Source: Deltaproteobacteria bacterium
Lineage (GTDB): Bacteria; Myxococcota_A; UBA796; CAJQPC01
DNA length: 49,030 nucleotides
Reading direction: 5' to 3'
Assembly: GCA_016717595.1 (NCBI GenBank)
Contig: JADKFE010000010.1
Coordinates: 1 to 49,030 of the forward strand
In this document: in pieces, positions 1 to 27,414 of the stretch
Layout: every line of letters starts with the position of its first letter
Numbering within the stretch: the first letter of the stretch is position 1
Made by a program: the position numbers and the translations under genes
The notes under the pieces: generated by a model
The model's database searches: none
What the model saw: only the letters and a program-made list of their open reading frames with translations
Told to the model about the DNA's origin: nothing

Positions 1-1054
1 TTGTCGTTGTTGTAGATGTTGACGTCATGCTCTATGGAGGAGAGGCTCTCAAGGCCATCGATGCTCTCCAGCTTCGGGTTGTCGCAGACATTTAAACTGC
101 CCACCGAGGAGAGGGCCTCAAGGCCCGCCATGCTCGTCAGGGAGGAGTTGTCAGACACGTCCAGTTGATCGCGCACATCTTGAAGGCTAGAGAGGCCGGT
201 GAAATCCTTCAAGCTGTAGTTGTCCTCGACTGTGAAGTTGGTCCCGATGGAGACGAGCCCCTCAAGGCCCTCAAGGCTCTTGAGCCCTGAGTTGCCGGTC
301 AGATTAATCCTACCGGCCACGGAGATCAGGTTCTCAAGGCCCTTGAGATTTTTGAGCCCGTGGTTGGACTCCATGATGAGGCTCCCGCTCACGGCGGTGA
401 GACAGCTTAAGGACGCGATCTGTTCGGTGGTGGCGGAGGTGAGGTATAGGGTTCCACCTAAGCTGCGCTCACAATACCCAGCACAGAACTCCTTCATCTC
501 CCAGGAGAATATATCACCACGGGCGCTGTCGGAGGGCAACCAACCAGACGGGTTCGTGTCGTCACAGTCATCCGCGCCAACGAAGCCGTCGCCATCGCCG
601 TCCTCATCCAGGGTGCTCGGATCGCAGTCGTTGTCCAGACCGTCGAACGGGATCTCTTCAGTCCCCAGCGCGGGGTTGGTGTCGTCACAGTCCTCCGCCA
701 TGTTGACCCCGTCGCCGTCGAGATCGTCATCAAGGGTGCTCGGATCGCAGTCGTTGTCCACGCCGTCGTAGGTGACCTCGGCGGCGTCGGGGTGTACCGC
801 CGGGTCATCGTCGTCGCAGTCCTCAGCGAGCACAAACCCGTCGCCGTCGGCGTCCTGGGCTCGGTCTGGGTGTCGGCCTCGGTGTCGGTCTCGGTGTCGG
901 CCTCAGTGTCGGTCTGGCTGTCGGTCTGGCTGTCGGTCTGGGTGTCAGTCTGGGTGTCAGTCTGGCTGTCGGTCTCGGTGTCTTCCCCAGGCTCCTTGTC
1001 ACCACAGGCGGAGAGGAGGCTGAGGGCAAACGTGACGGAGAGGAGGGGGCGCAT
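1..1054 (-). CDS. Secreted lipoprotein (paralog B): lipobox signal, (TDTQ)n linker, 3 MopE/TSP3-like Ca-binding Cys/Asp repeats, LRR domain; 3' end runs off window; apparent -1 frameshift near 857-859
   Basis: Translation from 1054 gives MRPLLSVTFALSLLSAC (lipobox LLSAC) then DTETDSQTDTQ repeats. After ~nt 857 the YDGxDNDCDPST...DGDG motifs and LSGLEGL-type LRRs read only in the +1 frame. Expected CCCC is read as CCC when compared with paralog A. Confidence 0.55.
868..990 (-). repeat. 12-bp tandem coding repeat (gacacccagacc-like, ~10 units) encoding a (TDTQ/TDSQ/TETD)n linker
   Basis: Direct inspection of 868-990: gtctgggtgtcg/gtctcggtgtcg units on the plus strand. Confidence 0.7.
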
Positions 1055-1126
1055 CTTGGCTCCGAGGGTGATTCCGTGAACTGGATCAGAGGTCGTGACA
1101 AGCTAGCCAGCGCGGCGTCGCGAAGG

Positions 1127-3264
1127 TCAGGCGCCGGGCAGGTGCCCAGATTGTCGGTGTTCGTCACCGTGCCAGTGAACGCGGTGAGCTGCGCGACGAG
1201 GGTGCCCACCTCATCTTCGCACAAGCTGTCGTTGCTCGGCACAGAGATGTCCCAGCCCACGGTGGTGAGGGCGTCGAGGTCGGAGAGGCTCGTCAGCGAC
1301 GGGTTGTCCGAGACGTTGAGGTAATAGCTCACTTTAACGAGCGCGTTGAGGCCCGAGAGGCTCGTCAGCGACGGGTTGTCGCGAACATAGACAGAGCCGC
1401 TCAACGAGGTGACATTGGGGAGCCCCGAGAGGCTCACCAGCGAGGCGTTGTCTTCGATGCGAAGGTCCCTCTTTAAGTTGGAGAGCCCTTCGAGGCCCGA
1501 GAGGCTCGTCAGCGAGGCGTTGCTCTTCACCTTGAGGGAGTCGCCAATGGTGGTCAACGAGTCAAGGCCCGAGAGGCTTGACAGGTTGCTGTTGGAGGCG
1601 ATCAACAGGCCTCCCGCCAACGAGGTGAGGCCCTCAAGGCCGGTGAGACGCTCCAATGCGTAGTTTCCGAAGATGTGAGTCTCCCCACCGATGAAGGTCA
1701 GGCCCGAGAGCCCCGAGAGGTCTAAGAGCTGATAATTGTAGTCAATGCTGACGTCTCCACCCACGGAGGAGAGGTTCTCAAGGCCCGAGAGGGTGGTTAT
1801 CGTCCTGTTGCTGTACACGATGAGATCACCGTCGATGGCGGTGAGACAGGTCAAGGCGGCGACGTCGGTGGTCTTGGCGGCGGAGAGGTCCAGATCTCCG
1901 CCGATGCGCCGCTCACAGTACCCCGTGCAGAAGAGGGAGGTGAAGCTGGCGCCCAGATCTCCGGAGTACGTGTCAAGGGCCAGCCACCCGAGCGGGTTGG
2001 TGTCGTCGCAGTCGTCCGCCATGGCGAGGCCGTCTCCGTCGAGGTCGTCATCGGGGGTGCTCGGATCACAGTCGTTGTCGAGGCCGTCGTAGGCGATCTC
2101 GACCGCGTCGGGGCTCACCGCCGGGTCGCCGTCGTCACAGTCCGCCGCCGCGACGAGGCCGTCACCGTCGAGGTCGTCGTCGCGGGTGCTCGGATCACAG
2201 TCGTTGTCGAGCCCGTCGTAGGGTAGCTCGGCGCCGCCCACGGTTGAGTCGCCGTCGTCGCAGTCCGCCGCCGCGACGAGGCCGTCGCCGTCGAGGTCGT
2301 CGTCGAGCGTCGTCGGGTCACAGTCGTTGTGGAGTGCGTCGTAGGGCCGCTCGGCGCCACCCACGGTTGAGTCGCCGTCGTCGCAGTCCGCCGCCGCGAC
2401 GAGGCCGTCACCGTCGAGGTCGTCGCCGCGGGTGCTCGGATCACAGTCGTTGTCGAGGCCGTCGTAGGCGATCTCGACCGCGTCGGGGCTCACCGCCGGG
2501 TCGCCGTCGTCACAGTCCGCCGCCGCGACGAGGCCGTCACCGTCGAGGTCGTCGTCGCGGGTGCTCGGATCACAGTCGTTGTCGACGCCGTCGTAGGGCA
2601 GCTCGGCGCCGCCTAGGGCTGAGTCGCCGTCGTCGCAGTCGGCCGCCGCGACGAGGCCGTCGCCGTCGAGGTCGTCGTCGAGGGTGCTCGAATCACAGTC
2701 GTTGTCGACGCCGTCGTAGGTAGCTCTGCGCCGCCCACGGTTGAATCGCCGTCGTCGCAGTCGTCCGCCGCGACGAGGCCGTCGCCGTCGAGGTCGTCGT
2801 CGAGGGTGCTCGAATCACAGTCGTTGTCGACGCCGTCGTAGGGTAGCTCTGCGCCGCCCACGGTTGAGTCGCCGTCGTCGCAGTCGTCCGCCGCGACGAG
2901 GCCGTCGCCGTCGAGGTCGTCGTCGGGGGTGCTCACGTCACAGTCGTTGTCGACGCCGTCGTAGGGGTAGCTCGGCGCCGCCCACGGCGGGGTCGCCGTC
3001 GTCACAGTCGTCCGCCGCGACGAGGCCGTCGCCGTCGAGGTCGTCGTCGGGGGTGCTCGGATCACAGTCGTTGTCGACGCCGTCGTAGGGCCGCTCTGCG
3101 CCGCCTATGGTTGAGTCGCCGTCGTCGCAGTCAGCCGCCGCGACGAGGCCGTCGCCGTCGCCGTCTTGGGGCTCGGTTTCATCCTGCGTGTCCTCCGCGG
3201 GCTCTTTGTCGCCGCAGGCGGAGAGGAGGCTGAGGGCGAGCGCTGCGGCGAGGAGCGGGCGCAT
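1127..3264 (-). pseudogene. Secreted lipoprotein (paralog A): lipobox signal, ~9 tandem MopE/TSP3-like Ca-binding repeats, C-terminal LRR domain; disrupted by compensating +1/-1 indels in G-runs (~2958 and ~2719) and probable loss of stop at ~1130
   Basis: MRPLLAAALALSLLSAC starts at 3264. Repeats DGLVAAADCDDGDSTVGGAELPYDGVDNDCDPSTPDDDL read in frame 0 from 3264 to ~2960, in frame 2 between ~2960 and ~2719, then in frame 0 again. Unit at 2955 has gtagggg (4 G) and unit at 2715 has gtagg (2 G), versus gtaggg in the other units. The C-terminal ...NLGTCPAPDL reads through where paralog C ends CPSS*. Confidence 0.55.
2100..3170 (-). repeat. ~120-bp tandem coding repeats (about 9 units), each encoding one ~40-aa Cys/Asp-rich Ca-binding module
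   Basis: The unit gagtcgccgtcgtcgcagtc[c/g]gccgccgcgacgaggccgtc recurs at ~2247, 2367, 2492, 2614, 2742, 2862, 2985 and 3105. Confidence 0.8.
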
Positions 3265-3345
3265 CGGGGCTCCAACGGTGATCCCGTCGATGGGACCGTG
3301 CGTGTACGACACCATGGAGGCCGCAACAGGCGGGATGGATCACCC

Positions 3346-3600
3346 CCTCGTGAGGCTCAGGAGCTCGGGCAGGTGCCGGTGTTTTTGCTGTTGATCACCG
3401 AGCCCGAGAAGGCGGTGAGCCGGGCGAGGAGCGCGTCCACCTCCTCGCGGCGAGGGGTGGCGTCGTAGAGGATGGTGCTGGGCGATGGGGCGGAGGGCAT
3501 CCAGACCATCGAAGCTCGTCAGCGAGCTGTTTTGGTCGAGGGGGAGGCCCCTCTGCGCGGCGTTGTCAACGCCACGGAGACGCGGGGCGTGGCGCCTCAA
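3346..3600 (-). pseudogene. C-terminal remnant (~85 aa) of a third paralog of the LRR lipoprotein family, itself frameshifted
   Basis: Translation gives ...LPLDQNSSLTSFDGLDAL..., then in the +1 frame YDATPRREEVDALLARLTAFSGSVINSKNTGTCPSS*, matching the paralog A C-terminus EDEVGTLVAQLTAFTGTVTNTDNLGTCPA. It is followed by the conserved RBS/ATG junction of paralog A. Confidence 0.5.
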
Positions 3601-3653
3601 CGCCGACCTCCCGTCTCAGCGGCCGGGGCGCGGGGGCCGCTAAGCCGGAGCCA

Positions 3654-5185
3654 CTACGCCCCCACCCCAGCCGCCACCGTCAACGCCGGCCTCGGCGACT
3701 CCTCCCCGCGCGCCGCCCGCGCCACAGAGTGCGGCGCGAACTCCGCGAACGCCCGCTTGTAGTCGGCAAAGGCGCCCCCCGCGCGCACGGCGTGCATCAC
3801 CGCGAGGCCGGTCTGGGCGTCGCCCTGGGCCAACACCGCCTCCACCCAGGCCCAGCGCGCGGAGGTGGCGCGCAGCTCGACGCGGCCGCGGCTGGGCTTA
3901 AACGCCGTCTCCAGGCGCTTGAGGCGGGACTCCACCACCTTCAGGCCCACGAAGCCATCATTGAGCATGGGCGTGTTGAGCTTGGGCACAAAGGGCGCCA
4001 TGCCGATGGCGACGGGGTGGATCGCGCCGAGCTCCAAGGAGAAGCGCACGAGCTCGTCGAGATCGGCGTCGGTCTCGCCGGGCACGCCGATCATCATGTA
4101 GACCTTGAGCACCTTGTAGCGGTGCTCGGCGGCCTGGCGGGCGCAGTCGATGAGGTGCTGCTCGGTGGTGCCTTTGGACATCTCCCGGCGCAGGCGCTGG
4201 CTCGCGGCGTCTGAGGCCACGGTGAGGGTGCTGTAGCCGCCTTGGCGCAGAAGCTCGGCGATGCGGGGCTTGCGGGCCACACGGTCGGCGCGCAGGGAGC
4301 TGATGCCGACGCCCTTCCCGGCGGCGATCAGCGCCTCTAAGATGGGGACCAGCTCGGGGTGATCGGAGATCGCCGCGCCGACGAGGCCCACCCGGGGGGC
4401 GTAGTCGGGGACGAGGGAGAGCACGCGGTCGGCGGTGACCAGGCGCATCCCGCCGTTCGTGCTGCGGCGCATCACGCAGAAGGTGCACTGGCGATGGCAG
4501 CCGCGCTCCCCTCCAGCAGAAACATGCTGGAGAGCTCGGCGTCGGGGGCGATGATGCGGCTGCGGGCGGGGAGCTCGGCGTCGGAGGCCTTGGCGATGGT
4601 GGGCAGGCGGTCGCCGTCGCGCTCGGGCAGGTAACCGCCGGGCAGGGCGGCCACGGCGGCGCGTAAGGCGTCCAAGCCGCCGGAGATCGCGGCCTCGACG
4701 GCGGGCACCACCGTCTCCTCAGCCTCGCCCAGGAGCATGGCGTCGACAAACGGCGCGGCGGGGAGCGGGTTCGAGAAGGTGAGCGGGCCGCCGAGCAGCA
4801 CCAGGGGATCGTAGCCCGTGCGATCTTCGCGGCGGGCGGGGATGCCCGCGAGCTCAAAGGCCGTGAGCATCCCGGCGAGCTCAAGCTCGTAGGCCAAAGA
4901 CACGCCGATGATGGGGAAGTCCCGCAGCGGGGTCTGCGTCTCGTAGGTGCACAGGGGCAGGCGGGAGCGGCGCCAGGCGTCTACGTCGTCGGGTAAAAAC
5001 GCGCGCTCGACGGCGAACCCGGCGCGGGTGAGCAGCTCGTGAATCCACTGGAAGCCAAGGGACGACATGCCCGCGCGGTACGGCGAGGGGTAGAGCAGGG
5101 CCACGCGCGCCTGACCGGGGGTGAAGCCCGGCCCACGCTCGCGGGCGAGGCGCTCGACGATCGGCTCGTTGTGCTTCCAGGGCAT
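3654..5185 (-). CDS. B12-binding-domain radical SAM protein, split by a frameshift near 4508-4511
   Basis: The N-terminal ORF (5185-4472) has a cobalamin-binding-like fold (VALLYPSPYRAGMSSLGFQWIHELL). The radical SAM motif GCHRQCTFC is read only after shifting frame at the junction gaggggagcgcggctgccat. The C-terminal ORF (4475-3654) carries the TIM-barrel part (MMIGVPGETDADLDEL). Confidence 0.6.
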
Positions 5186-12113: not shown

Positions 12114-12944
12114 CTATTGTGGGGTGGCCGCCGCTGGCAAACCTTTCCCCAAACGGGCCATGGTGACCCACGCGGCGACGTCATCGACCTCCCAAGAGTT
12201 GTCGGACCCACGCCAGAGCAGGCGGCCGTCACCGTCGAGCACCAGGATGTGCAGGCTGTGGAGGATGTCGCCTTGGCTCTCGACCCGGCTGGCCCCGGCG
12301 CGTAACAACAGCGTCTTGAGCGCGTCGAGCTCTAAGCGGGCGAAGGTCCACGTTGCGGGGTTCGCGCCGCGCTCGGCGCCGTAGGCCTTGAGCACCTCCA
12401 GAGAGTCCCGGGCGGGGTCCAAGGTGACGCTCACGATGCGCCCGTGGCCGAGCTGGCCTTGAAGCTCCTTGAGCTTGCTCGCCAACAAGGGGCAGGCCTC
12501 GGGCATGGGGCAAGACGTGAACAAGAAGGTGAGCACCGTCGGCACGCCTTGGCCCGCGCCGATGAGCACCGGGCCGTCCACGCCGGGCATCGTGAGCGCC
12601 GGGAGCTGCTCCCCTTCAGCCAGGGCGATCACCGCGTCGGGGGCCAGGGCCAGGGGCTCCTCGTGGCCGGTGACCTTGGCGCCGATGATCCGCACCGTGC
12701 CGTCTTCAGCGGTCATCAGGTTCGCCTGGATGAGATCCCCAGGGCGAAGCTGCCGGGCGAGGTTGGGATCGACGACGAAGGTGGTGGCGCCCTCCTCAAA
12801 GGCGCCGGGCACGGGGCCGTGCTCCAGCCGCACGCTGTGCTGGCCGACGTCGCGCACCACGCCGTTGACGGAGTAGGTGTCTCCAGCGACAAAGTTACAG
12901 CCGGCCAGAGCGAAGACGGCGATGAGCCCGCGCATCAGAGGCAC
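12114..12944 (-). CDS. SCO1/SenC-family copper chaperone lipoprotein (thioredoxin-like)
   Basis: LAGC lipobox and FTSCPMPEACP (CxxxC) motif. Confidence 0.65.
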   Translation of the reverse strand: MPLMRGLIAVFALAGCNFVAGDTYSVNGVVRDVGQHSVRLEHGPVPGAFEEGATTFVVDPNLARQLRPGDLIQANLMTAEDGTVRIIGAKVTGHEEPLALAPDAVIALAEGEQLPALTMPGVDGPVLIGAGQGVPTVLTFLFTSCPMPEACPLLASKLKELQGQLGHGRIVSVTLDPARDSLEVLKAYGAERGANPATWTFARLELDALKTLLLRAGASRVESQGDILHSLHILVLDGDGRLLWRGSDNSWEVDDVAAWVTMARLGKGLPAAATPQ

Positions 12945-17130: not shown

Positions 17131-18604
17131 ATGTCCGGCAACACCTATGTGGTCCTGATTGGTGTCAACGAGTACCCCAAGCTTGGGGCGGGCGCCTCGC
17201 TCAAGGGCTCCTGCAACGACATGCGCCACTGGCTCCGCTTCGCCCGGGTGAGCCTCGGGGTGCCCGGCGAGCAGGTTCAGCTCCTCACCCACCCGGCCCT
17301 TGAGGGCGAAGACGTGCGGCTGCCCAAGGGCCACCACCGCGGCGCGAGCTTGGCCGAGGCGAACGGGGCGATCGACGCCCTCATCCATTGGCTGCAAGAG
17401 AACCCCACGGGCACCGGGCTCATCGTGTACTCCGGCCACGGCGGCCACATCAACCCCGGCGACGACCCCAACGCCACGGACTTTGACGGCGACCGCCTCG
17501 CCTTGGGCCTCAGCGACGCGGGAGATCACCGACGGCACCCTCCGCGGCGCCCTCGTCGTTCAGCAGCTTGACCTGCGCCTCGCCGCCTTGGGCTTGAACG
17601 AGCGCGTGACCTTGGTGATCGACGCCTGCTATGGCGACCTCAACGTGCAGCGTTTTGACCGGGAGCTGATCACCGCCGAGCCCCAGCCCGACGCCACGAC
17701 CGGCCTGCGGGTGCTGCTCTCCACCGCCGTCGGCGCGGCCAGCTACGAGGCCTACATCGCCGGTCAGTGGCAGAGCGCCTACTCCTTCGCGCTCCTCACC
17801 TTGCTCAGCCAGTGGGGCAACGCCCAGGTGGGCGGCGTTCACATCGTCCGGGCGAGCCACCGCGAGCTGACCTTCCGGGCGCGTGAGCTGCTCAACGTGC
17901 TCGGCTACACCGACCAGGCCCCGGCCTTCGCGGGGGCGGCGCGGGCGCTGGACGCCCCGTTCAACAACCCGTCGATCTTTGAGGTGCCGGTGAGGCCCTC
18001 GTGGGTGCCGGACGGCAACCGAAAGATCAAGGAGCTGGGCGGAGAGTCTGACGACCTGGGCGTCTGGACGTTGAAGACCGGCAGCACCATCCTCGCGACG
18101 GGGCTGGTGAACAACTCCGGCGCGGCGGTGAGCTTCAACGGCGGCGGCTCGACCATCCAGAACGGCAAGGCGATGTGGTACCTCCGCAGCACCGGGGCGC
18201 CGCAGAGCTTTGGCAGCCTCACGATGGAGTGGCTGGCGCAGACCGCCAGCGGCGGCTCGATCTCGTGGAACGTTCCCTCCAACCTCACTTATGCCGAGAC
18301 CGAGGACTACGCGCCGTCGATGACGACGATCACCACGGCCCCGGCGGGCACCTCCTTCGGCAACTTCAGCATCAACGACGGCAACAGCGACCCCAAGAGC
18401 ATGTGGGTGTCCGTCGAGGTGACCTCCAACGGCGCGGGCAGCTACAAGGTCAACACCCTCTCGTTCACCGCGACGAGCAGCGTCACGCCCTACCAAGTCA
18501 CCCCGTTGCCCCCGCCCGGCTCAAGCTCGGGGAGCTGGACCAAGAACCAGTCCAACATCCCCTTCACCGTCGGCGTGACCTACTCCTCCAACACCCTCGG
18601 CTGA
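17131..18604 (+). CDS. Caspase-like (peptidase C14) protease with ~300-aa beta-rich C-terminal domain; split by +1 indel near 17519-17522
   Basis: YVVLIGVNEYP...GSCNDM...LIVYSGHGGH (His) in the first ORF. The catalytic Cys motif VTLVIDACYGD appears only in the second ORF's frame. Junction ...LSDAG|EITDGTL. Confidence 0.65.
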
Positions 18605-21083
18605 GGAACGGGCCACACCACCCGCAGCCCCATGGTCAGAAAGCGGCGCTCAGGGGTGTTGCCGAAGCGGGTGGCGAGGCGCTGGGTCATCGGGGGGGAG
18701 CCAAAAAAGCCCCCCCGCACCGCGCGGTGGGTGCCTGCCTCTGGGATATCCACCGCTCGCCCAGCCTGAACTGGCCCTCGCACCGACCACCAGTTGCGGC
18801 ACCAAGTGCGGGCGTTTCCGGCGAGGTCACGCACGCCGTAGGGGCTCTCGTCCGCCTCAAACTCCCCGACCGAGAGCAGGCCGGGCGGCGAAGGAACGGA
18901 GCCCAACACCGCGACCAGCGTGGCTCTAGCTCCCGGCCCCAAGGGGTGTACCGCCCGTCCACACCGCGCCCGGCCTTCTCGATCTCAAGCTCGTTGGGCA
19001 GGTGTCCGCCCATCCAAGCGGCGGCGCGCGCGGCGGCGTCCCACGAGATCGCCGTCACCGGATGATTGACCTCCCCGGGACGGCCGAGCACCACACGGTC
19101 CCCGCTGCGCACGAGATACTGGTCTTTTATGCTGACCCAGGGCCAACAACTCTCCACCCCCGCCTCATCCCCAGCGGCGATGAGCGCCTCCAAAAACGCC
19201 GCGTACTCCCCCAAGGTCACCGGGAAACGCCCCAAGACGAAGCCGTCTACCCACACCCGCTGCCGGGGCAGGCTGTCGGCGGCGAAGGGGTCTCCGCCGA
19301 CGATGCAGTAGCCCGGCGGGATGTAGACCTGGTCGTCACGAAGCTCGCCGGGCTCGGGGATCACGATGAGCGCGGGCTCACCCCCCTCGGGAGGCACGCC
19401 GTCCCAGCGCCCGGCGCGCTCCATGAGCACGGGGTAACGAACGGTGACGCCGTCGGCCTCCAGGGTGACGAGCCAAGATCCCCGGGGCACGGTCACCTCA
19501 CGCAAGGGCGTCACGCCGAGGCGCCGCTCGGGCTCGGGCACGAGGCGACGACCCTGCTCGACGAAGCGGTGCAGCCAGGCGACGGCGGGCCGGGACGTGC
19601 GGATCGACAGCGCGCCGTCGCCCTTGAGGTAGGCCGCGTGTCGCCCGCGGTCGTGGCTCGCGAGCAGCAGCTCCGCCCGCTGCGTCGCCAACGGATCAAG
19701 CTGGCGATCGGCGCGCTCGAGCTCGTCGCGGTAGTGGTCGGCGAGGAGCGCGTGGGCCTCGGGAAGCTCGGGATCCCGGTTGAGCGCGGCGCGGAGATCC
19801 TGATGCCAGGCGACCTCTCGTAGGGTCACCTCGGACTCTAAGGCGGCGGCGCGGTCCTGCATCTCCCAGATGGGCAGCTTGGACTCGACGGGCGCTTCAG
19901 CGCTCAACGACTCCAAGAGCGAGGCGGCGTGGGCCCGAAGCGCCTCGGCCTCCCGCTGGAGCTTGAGGATCCCCGGGCGCTGGGCCTCGGCGCGGCGCGT
20001 CTGGGCGAGGGCCTCGGCGCGGCGCAACGAGCCGTCGAGCCACAACGAGAGCGCCTCGGCCATCGCGCCGGCGTCGGGGTAGCGGTGAATGGGGTCGGGC
20101 ATCAGCGCCCGGCCGCAGATGTGGCGCAGCTCCGGGGGGAGCTCCGCGCGCTCGATGGCCTCGGGCCAGCGCGGCGGGTCGGAGACGAGGCGCCGCCAGA
20201 TGAGCTTGGGGTCGCCCTCCAGGGGGCCTCGACCGCACAGGACGCTGTGCAGCACGGCGCCCAGCCCGTACACGTCCGAGGCTGGCCCCACCTGATCGTG
20301 CTGGCCCCGCGCCTGCTCTGGCGACATAAACGCCGGGGTGCCCAGCACCGCGCCGCCCAAGGTGACGCCCTCGTTCTCCCAGACCGGCGCCCCGGCGAAG
20401 GGCGGCAGCTCCGGCGCGCCGATCCACCGCGCCAGGCCCCAGTCCATCACCCGCACCTCACCGAAGCGGCCCACCATGAGGTTCGCGGGCTTGAGGTCGC
20501 GGTGCAGCACCCCGCGGCTGTGGGCGTACCCGACGGCGTCGCAGATGCTTCGCACCAGGGTGACGAGGCGGTGAACCACGTCGGGGCCCACGGCCGGGCC
20601 GGTGATCATCTCGCCCAGCGTCTTGCCATCCACCAAGGTCATCGTGAACCAGAGGCGCCCGTCAAGAAGCTCTCCGCGGTCCATCACCGAGACGACGCCG
20701 GGGTGCTGCAGCCGCGCCGTGGTCGCGATCTCCCCCAGAAACCTCGCCCGCGCGGCGGCGCTCTCCAGGAGCTCCCAGCCGAGCACCTTCATCGCCACAG
20801 GCACCCGCAGCTTCCGATCCCAGGCCCGGCGAACCTCGCCCATGCCGCCCCGGGCGATGAGCCCGAGATCGTGGTACCGCGCCTCGGGCGACTCAAAGGC
20901 CGCCACGGCCGCGGGCTCCCCGTCTGGGGTCCAGGTGGTCTCGTCGTGCATGATGAATGCTACAGCGCGGAGGGATCCCCGGTCAAGGCGGAGGCGCTGC
21001 CGCGCCCTTGATGGCCCAGGCGGCGATTGACGCCGGGGGGTGGCGGCGGGCGCCTCGCCGGGTGAGAGTACAGCGTGCCTCAC
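18580..21083 (-). CDS. Ser/Thr protein kinase fused to a C-terminal formylglycine-generating-enzyme (FGE/SUMF1) domain; frameshift near 18937-18947
   Basis: Kinase motifs GGMGEVRRA, AMK, HRDLKPANLMV, DWG. FGE-like block YTPWG...SPYGVRDLAGNARTWC...RAVRGGFF...GLRVVW continues in another frame at a cccc/gggg run. Confidence 0.7.
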
Positions 21084-26249: not shown

Positions 26250-26786
26250 TCAACCCGCCGTGCGCTTGAGGCCCGCCTTGGCCTCCTCGTGATCGGGCTT
26301 GAGGGCGAGGATCGCCTTAAACTCGCGGTTGGCGTTCAGCTTCATCGCCAAGGCCTCATACACGTTCGCCAAGGCCAGCCGGTACTCAACCACCTGCGGA
26401 TCCTTGTCTACGGCCTTGCGGAAGTAGGTCAAGGCGCCCTTGTTGTCGTTGCCGTTGGCCTGGATGATCTTGCCCAGGCGGTAGAAGGGCTCGCCCATCG
26501 GCGGATCGAAGCCTACGGCCTGGTGGTAATGAAAGAACGCCTCCTTGGTGCTGGAGAAGCTCTCGGCCTTCTTCGCCAGCTCGATCTGCTTCTCGGCCTG
26601 CTGGCGACGGCCCTTGGCGTCGGCCTCGACGAAGCGTTTTTTGTACTCCTCGTTGCGCGGGTCAAACTCCATCGCGAGCTTGAAGTTTCTCGCGGCCTTG
26701 GACCACTCGTTCGCGGCGACGTCCGCCTCGCCGAGCTTAAAGAAGCCCCGGGCCTTCTTGAGCCGCTCGATGATCGGGGCCTTCAA
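26250..26786 (-). CDS. TPR-repeat protein; the reading frame stays open upstream through a Pro/Ala/Lys-rich linker, possibly the C-terminal part of the J-domain protein
   Basis: TPR-like helical repeats (YRLALANVYEALA, ALTYFRKAVDKDP). No stop in this frame upstream of MKAP for more than 150 nt. Confidence 0.55.
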   Translation of the reverse strand: MKAPIIERLKKARGFFKLGEADVAANEWSKAARNFKLAMEFDPRNEEYKKRFVEADAKGRRQQAEKQIELAKKAESFSSTKEAFFHYHQAVGFDPPMGEPFYRLGKIIQANGNDNKGALTYFRKAVDKDPQVVEYRLALANVYEALAMKLNANREFKAILALKPDHEEAKAGLKRTAG

Positions 26787-26832
26787 GGCGTCTACGGCGG
26801 GGGAGGAGGCCTTCTTGGGCTCGGCGGCGGGC

Positions 26833-27414
26833 TTAGGCGCCTCGGGCGGCGGCGGCGGGGCTGGCGGCGCCTGGCGCCGGAGGGGTGAAACGTACGGTGT
26901 AGGGATCTGCGGTGGTGGCGGCGGCCGGCGACGCGCCGCCCGGACGCCCCACGTTCGGCGGCGAAGGCGGCGGGGGTCGGGCGGGCGGTGAGCGGGGGCT
27001 GGCCCCGGCGGGCGGCGGCGAGGCGGTCGTCGTGACCGGGCGCGGCGGCGCGGGGCTCGGGCGGGTGGCGGCGGAGGCGCCTGCGCTGGCCGGGGGCTTG
27101 GGCTTGGGCTTCCGCTTCTGGGCGGTGACGAGGTCCTGGTCGTACTGGGCGCGGGCGCGCTCGTCCCCCAAGGTGCGATAGGCCTGGTTCACCCCGGCGA
27201 ACACGTCCTCCAGCATCTTCTCGAGGCCGCCGAGGTCTTGGCGGTAGTAGCGGTCGGGGTGAAACCGCCGCGAGAGGTTGTGGTAGGCGTTCTTCAGCGC
27301 CGTGCGGTCAAAGTCCTCCGCCACGCCGAGGAGCTCGTAGTGTGTGCCGTCGCGCAGCACCTCGCTGAGCCGGTGCAGCTCGGCCACATCTTCAGGCTTG
27401 AGGCCGCCGCTCAT
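26833..27414 (-). CDS. J-domain (DnaJ-like) protein with Pro-rich tail
   Basis: HYELLGV...AYHNLSRRFHPDR J-domain with HPD motif. ATGA overlap with the xerC-like stop. Confidence 0.7.
   Translation of the reverse strand: MSGGLKPEDVAELHRLSEVLRDGTHYELLGVAEDFDRTALKNAYHNLSRRFHPDRYYRQDLGGLEKMLEDVFAGVNQAYRTLGDERARAQYDQDLVTAQKRKPKPKPPASAGASAATRPSPAPPRPVTTTASPPPAGASPRSPPARPPPPSPPNVGRPGGASPAAATTADPYTVRFTPPAPGAASPAAAARGA

What the first reader, a model, noticed from the sequence alone, without database searches (positions are those of the whole stretch)
1..3600. Tandem array of paralogous Ca-binding-repeat + LRR lipoproteins with repeat expansion, a truncated third copy and multiple +/-1 indels
At least two full paralogs plus a C-terminal remnant share the same architecture: lipobox signal, Asp/Thr/Gln linker, 3 to 9 copies of a ~40-aa Cys/Asp-rich DNDCD Ca-binding module, and an LRR domain.

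- The RBS/ATG junction is conserved between copies.
- One paralog has a 12-bp (TDTQ)n microsatellite.
- Paralog A has nine 120-bp units.

This looks like a recombination-prone surface-protein family with a remnant left by unequal crossing-over. Within paralog A, two compensating indels (GGG to GGGG at ~2958, GGG to GG at ~2719) put two repeat units in a different frame. That is unusual.
Basis: seen in the sequence. Interest (0 to 1): 0.55.

Follow-up and report, generated by a model that had tools for sequence, protein, structure and literature searches.

The report
Real lipoprotein array, artefactual frameshifts
The tandem surface-lipoprotein genes with an expanded 41-residue repeat are real and vary between strains, but the "unusual compensating frameshifts" are almost certainly single-base consensus errors of a Nanopore-derived metagenome assembly, so the finding is largely ordinary.

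Summary
There is a 3' remnant (~3535-3357). Paralog A runs from ATG 3264 to ~1127 and has nine 123/129-bp units. Paralog B starts at ATG 1054, runs off the window, and carries a 12-bp microsatellite. Frame-corrected proteins are lipobox lipoproteins with PF11617 (MopE-type) Cys/Asp repeats and a confidently modelled LRR solenoid. This is a common but uncharacterised Myxococcota architecture.

The +/-1 indels are not special to the array. Single-base frame breaks of the same kind also interrupt a B12-radical-SAM gene (4508-4511), a caspase-like gene (17520-17522) and a kinase/FGE-sulfatase gene (~18911). All three are intact in 3-7 other assemblies, most 98-99% identical. The radical-SAM region downstream of its break is still under strong purifying selection (dN/dS 0.03-0.08). 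A sister MAG has an intact 836-aa ortholog of A without either repeat indel.

The window's protein accessions sit in the same NCBI series as two sister MAGs from a Nanopore R9.4.1 project with one Illumina polishing round, and those sisters carry their own private frameshifts.

What remains mildly interesting is the slot downstream of the radical-SAM gene. It holds lipoprotein arrays, a PIN toxin-antitoxin pair or a Septu defence cassette, depending on strain.

The parts
1..1054 (-). Paralog B, partial CDS (runs off window position 1). Frame-corrected order: lipobox signal, (TDTQ)n linker, 2.5 MopE-type modules, 'FCAGYCER' junction, LRR repeats.
   Evidence: PF11617 48.5 bits, PF01030 27.3 bits
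861..982 (-). 12-bp microsatellite encoding (T/S-D-T/S-Q/E)n in B's linker, 10.2 copies, 86% matches
857..859 (-). Frame break in B: CCC where the window's A, L001 copy 2 and L091 A have CCCC (ACCGAGCCCCA[A/G]GAC). A -1 in a C-run.
555..800 (-). B's two complete 123-bp MopE-type units
1127..3264 (-). Paralog A CDS as it would read after frame correction (712 aa): lipobox MRPLLAAALALSLLSAC, acidic linker, half module + 9 modules, LRR domain, C-terminal 'GTCPAP' cap
1999..3117 (-). Nine tandem 123/129-bp units (41/43 aa, two Cys each). Unit pairs A3-A4 are 96%, A5-A8 95% and A6-A9 91% identical, giving a 375-bp higher-order repeat.
2964..2967 (-). +1 (CCCC instead of CCC) in the L-P-Y codons of unit 2. 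Absent from the sister MAG's A ortholog.
2719..2720 (-). -1 (CC instead of CCC) at the same unit position in unit 4. Absent from the sister MAG's A ortholog.
1127..1140 (-). A's 3' end is 1 nt shorter than four other copies (CCCGAGCxCCTGA vs CCCGGCGCCTGA). The stop codon falls out of frame and the ORF as written runs on to 823.
1129..1990 (-). A's LRR domain: about ten 24-residue repeats, predicted solenoid
3357..3535 (-). Remnant C: decayed 3' end (last LRR unit + cap + stop) of the ancestral first gene of the locus. Shared with the sister MAG L091 (called there as a 48-aa ORF).
3265..3300 (-). Conserved upstream block with GGAG RBS before A's ATG. The same block lies before B at 1055-1090.
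3654..5185 (-). B12-binding radical-SAM gene, split by a -1 at the GGGG run 4508-4511 just before CxxxCxxC. Intact 509-511-aa ORFs in L001, L003, L091 and L093, and no frame break over the covered parts of L002 and L094. L092 also has the base but carries its own private break.
17131..18604 (+). Caspase-like (Peptidase_C14) gene split by an extra G in the run 17520-17522. 490 aa and intact in L083, L084, L085; L086 also lacks the extra base.
18600..21083 (-). Ser/Thr kinase + FGE-sulfatase gene with 1 nt (an A in TCG[A]CGG) missing at ~18911. 790 aa and intact in L083 and L084; L085 also has the base.

Best explanation
Window 1-3600 holds a genuine, strain-variable tandem array of surface lipoprotein genes of a widespread but uncharacterised Myxococcota family. 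Each gene encodes a lipobox signal, an acidic linker, a variable number of 41-residue two-cysteine Asp-rich PF11617 (MopE-type) modules, and an LRR solenoid.

Inferred working model: the protein is lipid-anchored and exported. The acidic, disulfide- and probably Ca2+-stabilised modules form a stalk whose length changes by unit gain or loss through homologous recombination. The LRR domain is the ligand-binding head.

The array sits in a hyper-variable slot directly 3' of a conserved radical-SAM gene. The 'third copy' is the deletion stub of the ancestral first gene of that slot.

The +/-1 indels, including the 'compensating' pair in A, are most likely residual consensus errors of a Nanopore R9.4.1 assembly, not mutations. 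In the organism A and B are probably intact genes. The errors pile up in A and B because short reads cannot be placed uniquely in 90-96% identical units and paralogs, so Illumina polishing fails there.
For: Shown:
(1) Architecture. Pfam PF11617 at 127 bits with 8 stretches, PF01030 at 49 bits. AF2 pLDDT 90.8 with a regular 24-residue beta-solenoid, and all top PDB fold hits are LRR proteins. The same architecture is found in many uncultured Myxococcota-type proteins.
(2) Seven single-base frame breaks in 49 kb: 857-859, ~1131, 2719-2720, 2964-2967, 4508-4511, 17520-17522 and ~18911. Five of the seven lie in G/C runs.
(3) The three breaks in conserved genes are private to this sequence. The radical-SAM base is present in L001, L002, L003, L091, L092, L093 and L094. 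The caspase extra base is absent from L083-L086. The FGE base is present in L083-L085. Most of these assemblies are 98-99.6% identical to the window, and several are independent ENA, JGI or Logan metagenome assemblies.
(4) Joining the frames restores full domains: Radical_SAM 48->66 bits including CxxxCxxC, Peptidase_C14 16->33 bits, FGE-sulfatase 62->108 bits.
(5) No decay. Radical-SAM dN/dS downstream of the break is 0.03 (vs L001) and 0.08 (vs L003). Frame-corrected A (712 aa) and B (351 aa) have no internal stops.
(6) The sister MAG's A ortholog is one 836-aa ORF whose unit spacings are all multiples of 3, and it lacks both repeat indels.
(7) Provenance. The window's proteins are NCBI MBK96449xx / IPO67_ on a 143,573-bp MAG contig. 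Same-species sister MAGs JADJYZ and JADJIW are listed in Singleton et al. 2021. The pipeline was CANU on Nanopore reads, Racon, two rounds of Medaka r941, then one round of Illumina Racon (PMC8012365).
(8) The sister MAGs carry their own private frameshifts: L092 has +T at window ~4317, leaving a 429-aa radical-SAM ORF; L083/L091 have +C at ~12353; L092's kinase gene is fragmented.
(9) Literature. Nanopore consensus indels cause frameshifted gene calls (PMC9262707), and such errors persist in repeats after short-read polishing (PMC8812927).
(10) Four of the seven breaks fall in the 3.3 kb of A+B (binomial P = 6e-4), as expected if polishing fails in repeats.
(11) Remnant and locus history.
Against: - No reads were available, so no indel is directly shown to be an error.
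- The window's own MAG was not found in the (truncated) supplementary table, so its Nanopore origin is inferred from accession and locus-tag series, species identity and contig style.
- The comparators are 92-99.6% identical, not the same strain, so strain-private recent mutations cannot be strictly excluded.
- B's break and A's lost stop have no orthologous comparator, only paralogs.
- Two of the seven breaks are not in homopolymers.
- L001, which appears to be a SPAdes short-read assembly from its contig name, also has degenerate copies at this locus (an in-frame stop and an internal deletion in copy 2). Real decay of family members therefore does occur in relatives.
- The stalk / Ca2+ / ligand-binding model is inference from domain composition only.
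Confidence: 0.85

Rival explanations
1. The indels are genuine, recent inactivating mutations. This strain is pseudogenising the lipoprotein array, together with the radical-SAM, caspase-like and kinase-FGE genes.
For: Family members do decay in relatives. L001 copy 2 has an in-frame stop and an internal deletion, and copy 1 is truncated in L001 and reduced to a stub in the window and L091. The breaks are enriched in A+B. The comparators are not the identical strain.
Against: The same lesion type hits three unrelated conserved genes that are under strong purifying selection (dN/dS 0.03-0.12). Each lesion is private to one assembly. The sister MAGs, which are documented as Nanopore-based, have different private lesions in the same genes. 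The independent ENA, JGI and Logan metagenome assemblies of the species show none of these breaks. There are no other lesion types (nonsense mutations, larger deletions) in A or B.
Confidence: 0.08
2. The +1/-1 pair and the other short-run indels are a functional switch: slipped-strand phase variation or programmed ribosomal frameshifting that controls expression of surface lipoproteins.
For: Surface-protein genes with repeats are classic contingency loci. A CCC-C site can in principle support +1 slippage of tRNA-Pro (general knowledge). The two indels in A restore the frame.
Against: The tracts are only 2-5 nt, far shorter than known phase-variable tracts. Frame 0 hits a stop 8 codons after the +1 site and again before the -1 site. 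The -1 site (CTA CCT ACG) offers no cognate re-pairing. The ortholog in the sister MAG is in a single frame. Identical lesions occur in cytoplasmic enzyme genes.
Confidence: 0.02
3. Beyond base-level errors, the array itself is mis-assembled: the number of repeat units is collapsed or expanded, or paralogs are chimerised.
For: Units are 85-96% identical. The sister MAG has 8 rather than 9 units and its contig ends inside the array. The 3' part of A differs completely between sisters.
Against: Nanopore reads normally span a 1.1-kb array. The unit order shows a coherent 375-bp higher-order structure. Flanking unique sequence is collinear with relatives.
Confidence: 0.12

Closest known systems
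PF11617 'Cu-binding_MopE / putative metal-binding motif' repeat proteins (type: Methylococcus capsulatus MopE, PDB 2VOV)
   Same: The 41-residue units match PF11617 well above threshold (127 bits in A, 48.5 in B). One unit aligns to the N-terminal residues 6-43 of MopE 2VOV (E = 0.002). The core is C.DG.DNDCDG-like, as tabulated in PMC3278476.
   Different: Only the short Cys/Asp motif is shared; the rest of MopE is not. No evidence was obtained here for copper binding. Here the motif is iterated 9 times as a stalk N-terminal to an LRR domain in a lipoprotein.
Bacterial LRR surface proteins / Receptor L-domain-like solenoids (internalins, BspA-type, T9SS-sorted LRR proteins of Bacteroidota)
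   Same: PF01030 and PF23952 matches. The AF2 model is a regular 24-residue solenoid, and its best fold hits are LRR proteins. The closest sequence homologs, at 35-45% identity, are LRR proteins, many carrying T9SS sorting domains.
   Different: Anchoring is by an N-terminal lipobox, not by LPXTG, T9SS or choline binding. There is a conserved Cys-containing 'FC.GYCER' N-cap and a '...C.DD...GTCP' C-cap. The ligand is unknown.
Thrombospondin type-3 (TSP3) Ca2+-binding repeats
   Same: Asp-rich DxDxDG-like motifs with paired cysteines in short tandem modules (seen directly in the sequence).
   Different: Pfam TSP_3 did not match at E <= 0.1. The resemblance is compositional, and Ca2+ binding is untested.
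Residual homopolymer and single-base indel errors in Nanopore R9.4.1 assemblies
   Same: Single-base indels, mostly in short G/C runs, fragment gene calls. They are private to each Nanopore MAG, absent from the independent metagenome assemblies, and concentrated in repeats where short-read polishing fails.
   Different: The runs here are short (2-5 nt) and two sites are not homopolymers. Read-level proof is lacking.
Myxococcus xanthus TraA-type polymorphic surface receptors (recalled from memory, not tested here)
   Same: A variable recognition domain combined with cysteine-rich tandem repeats on the myxobacterial cell surface, with strain-level polymorphism.
   Different: TraA has a PA14-like head and a MYXO-CTERM anchor rather than an LRR head and a lipobox. 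No sequence comparison was made.

Membership tests
PF11617 (Cu-binding_MopE) repeat proteins | Match to the Pfam model above its gathering score | tested here: met
   A: 127 bits (cut-off 27), 8 stretches. B: 48.5 bits. L089 and L091 orthologs also match.
PF11617 (Cu-binding_MopE) repeat proteins | Metal (Cu or Ca) binding by the motif | not testable with these tools
   Only a weak sequence match to MopE 2VOV residues 6-43. AF2 modelled the single included unit at low confidence (pLDDT 40-55).
Leucine-rich-repeat / Receptor-L-domain solenoid | Repeated ~24-residue LxxLxxLxxN-type units forming a beta-solenoid | tested here: met
   PF01030 at 49.1 bits (cut-off 21.8). AF2 pLDDT 90.8, one strand every 24 residues. 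Foldseek PDB hits are all LRR proteins.
Bacterial lipoprotein (Lgt/LspA substrate) | Signal peptide ending in the lipobox [LVI][ASTVI][GAS]C | tested here: met
   MRPLLAAALALSLLSAC (A) and MRPLLSVTFALSLLSAC (B), read directly from the sequence. No dedicated predictor was run.
Thrombospondin type-3 Ca-binding repeat (PF02412) | Match to the TSP_3 model | tested here: not met
   Not among the Pfam hits at E <= 0.1.
Phase-variable contingency locus (slipped-strand mispairing) | A long homopolymer or short-unit tract in the CDS or promoter whose length toggles the frame specifically at that locus | tested here: not met
   The tracts are 2-5 nt. The same indel type is found in radical-SAM, caspase-like and kinase-FGE genes. 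The sister ortholog is in frame.
Programmed ribosomal frameshift | A frameshift conserved in orthologs, with a slippery site and an open path between frames | tested here: not met
   The L091 ortholog is a single 836-aa ORF. There are stops in the zero frame between the two sites.
Genuine pseudogene | Lesions reproducible across independent assemblies of the lineage and/or relaxed selection after the lesion | tested here: not met
   This holds for A, B and the radical-SAM gene. The lesions are private to this assembly and dN/dS is 0.03-0.08 downstream of the radical-SAM break. Remnant C, in contrast, does meet it: it is shared with L091 and carries multi-nt gaps.
Nanopore consensus-error artefact | The assembly derives from Nanopore reads, and errors are absent from accurate reads | tested here: inconclusive
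   The sister MAGs are documented as R9.4.1 / CANU / Medaka / Illumina-Racon. The window's own MAG was not located in the truncated supplement. No reads were available.

The most novel reading that the evidence does not exclude
The single-base indels are genuine. The MopE-repeat/LRR lipoprotein array would then be a frameshift-switchable contingency locus in an uncultured UBA796 myxobacterium, with paired +1/-1 changes at the same position of different repeat units re-coding two modules. That would be embedded in a hyper-variable slot that also trades defence systems (Septu) and toxin-antitoxin modules between strains.
Probability: 0.04. Interest if true: 0.5.

Novelty: new member of a known kind. 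Interest (0 to 1): 0.12.

Why it matters
Mainly as a caution. Frameshifts, 'compensating indels' and split genes in this contig, and probably throughout this MAG collection, should not be read as biology without read support. Repeat-rich surface-protein genes are exactly where polishing fails.

The real residue is modest. It is one more example of the abundant, unstudied MopE-motif + LRR lipoproteins of Myxococcota. There is direct evidence that module number, LRR content and even gene presence differ between co-occurring wastewater strains. The genes also sit in a hotspot that alternatively carries a PIN toxin-antitoxin pair or a Septu defence cassette. That makes the family a reasonable candidate for strain-level surface recognition, but nothing here makes a long-standing question newly testable.

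Tried and rejected
- Exact-protein look-ups of three window proteins found no encoding contig (also 55). The source was only identified through the cluster look-up.
- The metagenome scan with A's LRR domain returned only two distant loci at 28-31% identity, so no independent assembly of A's unique 3' part was obtained.
- NCBIfam gave no family for A or B.
This was solved through cluster member P0209.
- I tested whether the indel sites share a motif. GAGC/GCTC lies within 6 nt of 5 of 7 sites against a 29% background. That is marginal, post hoc, and two of the sites are copies of one repeat context, so I did not use it.
- My first guess for the kinase-FGE break (a GGG run at 18901-18903) was wrong by ~8 nt. 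Comparison with L083-L085 places it at ~18911, as a missing A.
- Overlapping ORF pairs at 31.6-33.0 kb (DprA/Smg), 35.3 kb (DUF503) and 43.0-45.4 kb (membrane protein / LarA-like) were checked and are ordinary gene boundaries.
- The window's own MAG could not be found in the paper's supplement, which is truncated in the held copy.
Full report
**Observation**

The region is coding on the minus strand. Reading 5'->3' on that strand, three elements follow the stop of a radical-SAM gene at 3654.

(i) A ~180-bp stub (3535-3357) encodes a last LRR unit and the cap '...EEVDALLARLTAFSGSVINSKNTGTCPSS*'.

(ii) Paralog A starts at ATG 3264 with MRPLLAAALALSLLSAC. An acidic linker follows, then a half module and nine tandem modules. 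The NDCD anchors are spaced 124, 123, 122, 123, 129, 123, 123 and 129 bp. An LRR domain follows.

(iii) Paralog B starts at ATG 1054 with the same lipobox and a 12-bp (TDTQ)n microsatellite at 861-982. It has 2.5 modules and an LRR domain that runs off the window.

The unit is 123 bp / 41 aa, not 120 / 40. TRF also finds a 375-bp super-repeat, and unit pairs A3-A4, A5-A8 and A6-A9 are 91-96% identical. The RBS/ATG block is conserved before A, before B and before a relative's copy. A and B share only 43% identity across their LRR domains, so they are old paralogs.

I found further frame breaks. B has CCC at 857-859 where three other copies have CCCC. A is one base short just before its stop.

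**What the proteins are**

After frame correction, A (712 aa) and B (351 aa, partial) have no internal stops. Pfam gives PF11617 'Cu-binding_MopE / putative metal-binding motif' (127 bits, 8 stretches, in A) and PF01030 Receptor-L-domain / LRR_EndoS. NCBIfam has nothing.

An AF2 model of A's last module plus C-terminal domain has pLDDT 90.8. It shows one short strand every 24 residues, and Foldseek finds only LRR proteins. PDB sequence matches are weak: IGF1R L domain, MopE 2VOV residues 6-43, internalins. Homologs at 35-45% identity are numerous. Several have the same signal/lipobox + MopE modules + 'FC.GYCER' + LRR layout and are labelled Myxococcales/Myxococcota. The family is therefore a known, uncharacterised kind.

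**The frame breaks are not specific to the array**

The adjacent B12-radical-SAM gene (5185-3654) is split at a GGGG run (4508-4511), immediately before its CxxxCxxC motif. Joining the frames restores a 510-aa protein with a full Radical_SAM match.

A codon-usage Viterbi scan of the whole window flagged two more unexplained same-strand frame switches.

- A caspase-like gene has its His site in one frame and its Cys site in the next. Peptidase_C14 rises from 16 to 33 bits when the frames are joined.
- A kinase/FGE-sulfatase gene rises from 62 to 108 bits when joined.

The other flagged switches are normal gene boundaries. A DnaJ/TPR pair at 26.8 kb is probably a fourth case, because it is one 383-aa gene in the sister MAG.

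**Comparison with other assemblies**

Genome and metagenome look-ups retrieved relatives at 88-99.6% nucleotide identity.

- The base missing from the radical-SAM gene is present in L001, L002, L003, L091, L092, L093 and L094.
- The extra base in the caspase-like gene is absent from L083-L086.
- The base missing from the FGE gene is present in L083-L085.

L084, L085, L093 and L094 are separate ENA or JGI metagenome assemblies whose contig names suggest short-read assemblers. There the genes are 490, 790 and 510 aa and intact.

The radical-SAM gene is under strong purifying selection on both sides of the break. dN/dS is 0.076 upstream and 0.03 downstream against L001, and 0.125 and 0.084 against L003.

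Most directly, the sister MAG contig JADJYZ010000037.1 (L091) carries the orthologous array. Its A is a single 836-aa ORF with eight units, all spaced by multiples of three. Base-level alignment shows that the window 'lacks 1 nt' at 2719-2722 and 'has 1 extra' at 2964-2968 relative to it.

**Provenance**

The window's proteins are NCBI MBK9644899-902 and others (locus tags IPO67_...), on a 143,573-bp contig of a 'MAG: Deltaproteobacteria bacterium'. The 237-aa radical-SAM fragment is annotated there as a hypothetical protein.

Two same-species sister MAGs (JADJYZ, JADJIW) are listed in the Supplementary Data of Singleton et al. 2021 (PMC8012365) as Myxococcota class UBA796, dRep cluster 487. 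That study assembled Nanopore reads with CANU. It polished with Racon and two rounds of Medaka (r941 model), followed by one round of Racon with Illumina reads. I could not find the window's own MAG in the truncated supplement, so its membership of that project is an inference.

The sister MAGs carry their own private frameshifts. L092 has an extra T at window ~4317, leaving a 429-aa radical-SAM ORF, and a fragmented kinase gene. L083/L091 have an extra C at ~12353 in the SCO1/CusF gene.

Nanopore consensus indels that fragment gene calls are well documented (PMC9262707), as is their persistence in repeats after short-read polishing (PMC8812927). This also explains why four of the seven breaks lie in the 3.3 kb of A+B (P = 6e-4), and why two fall at the same context of near-identical units.

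**Verdict on the indels**

The 'compensating' pair is best read as two independent consensus errors at the same error-prone context of a repeat, not as biology.

- Phase variation and programmed frameshifting fail their defining tests: the tracts are short, there are stops between the sites, and the ortholog is in frame.
- Real, very recent strain-private mutations cannot be excluded without reads. I give that about 8%.

**What is real and mildly interesting**

The slot 3' of the radical-SAM gene is hyper-variable, and homology between strains ends within 5-20 bp of its stop codon.

- L089 and L003 have one intact family member there, of 535 and 512 aa.
- In L001 the 5' half of that gene is replaced by a PtuA/PtuB (Septu-like) cassette, and a second copy carries an in-frame stop and a deletion.
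- L092 and L093, at 98-99% identity to the window, have a PIN toxin-antitoxin pair instead of any lipoprotein.
- The window and L091 keep only the 3' stub of the first gene, followed by A and a further paralog.

A differs between the two sisters in unit number (9 vs 8) and in its 3' LRR part. Homology ends at window ~1565, and the next gene is a different paralog at 66% nt identity.

However, the stub looks like a deletion or replacement remnant rather than a product of unequal crossing-over between paralogs.

**Mechanism (inferred)**

These are lipid-anchored, exported proteins. An acidic, disulfide-bonded and probably Ca2+-stabilised modular stalk of variable length presents an LRR binding head. 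Strain-level variation suggests a role in surface recognition or adhesion. None of this was tested.

Noticed in passing
window 4508-4511 (gene 3654-5185, minus): The B12-binding radical-SAM gene is split by a missing base just before its CxxxCxxC motif. It is annotated in GenBank as a 237-aa hypothetical protein (MBK9644899.1). Seven other assemblies have the base.
   Followed up: yes
window 17520-17522 (gene 17131-18604, plus) and ~18911 (gene ~18600-21083, minus): A caspase-like Peptidase_C14 gene and a Ser/Thr-kinase + FGE-sulfatase gene each carry a single-base frame break that is absent from 3-4 other assemblies of the same species.
   Followed up: yes
window 26250-27414 (minus), around 26810-26885: DnaJ-domain and TPR ORFs are separate here but form one 383-aa gene in the sister MAG (L083). 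The Pro/Ala-rich linker differs by many 1-nt gaps (net +1), so this is probably another consensus error, in one or both Nanopore MAGs.
   Followed up: partly
L001 11552-14436: A two-gene PtuA (ATPase) / PtuB (HNH) Septu-like defence cassette replaces the 5' half of the first lipoprotein gene directly downstream of the radical-SAM gene (PADLOC E = 1.8e-39 and 2.7e-29).
   Followed up: partly
L092 50-807; L093 5062-5753: In two assemblies 98-99% identical to the window, the slot after the radical-SAM gene holds a PIN-domain toxin-antitoxin pair instead of the lipoprotein array. Homology to the window ends at 3637-3650. The slot behaves like an integration or replacement hotspot.
   Followed up: partly
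L001 15700-16665: Copy 2 of the family, in what appears to be a SPAdes short-read relative, has an in-frame stop (CDD*DP) and jumps from mid-module straight into the LRR repeats. It is either a genuine pseudogene or a low-coverage (3.99x) assembly problem.
   Followed up: partly
L092 (window-equivalent ~4317); L083/L091 (window-equivalent ~12353): The sister Nanopore MAGs have their own private single-base frameshifts, in the radical-SAM gene and in the SCO1/CusF gene. L092's 740-aa kinase gene is also fragmented. The error pattern looks collection-wide.
   Followed up: partly
window 1565 / L091 2307: A and its sister-MAG ortholog are ~93-96% identical from the 5' end to this point, then unrelated. 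The ortholog continues with a much longer LRR region (836 vs 712 aa), which indicates mosaic recombination among paralogs.
   Followed up: partly
window 2002-3160: The nine units are organised as a 375-bp (123+123+129) higher-order repeat. TRF scores it 1833, against 1634 for the 123-bp period.
   Followed up: partly
window indel sites 858, 2720, 2965, 4510, 18902: Five of the seven frame-break sites lie within 6 nt of GAGC/GCTC, against a 29% background. This might hint at a context- or methylation-dependent basecalling error, but it is marginal and post hoc.
   Followed up: no
window 12121-12155: The last ~14 codons of the SCO1/CusF-like gene (12114-12944, minus) differ from L001 by three 1-nt gaps (net -1). 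It is unclear which assembly is right.
   Followed up: no
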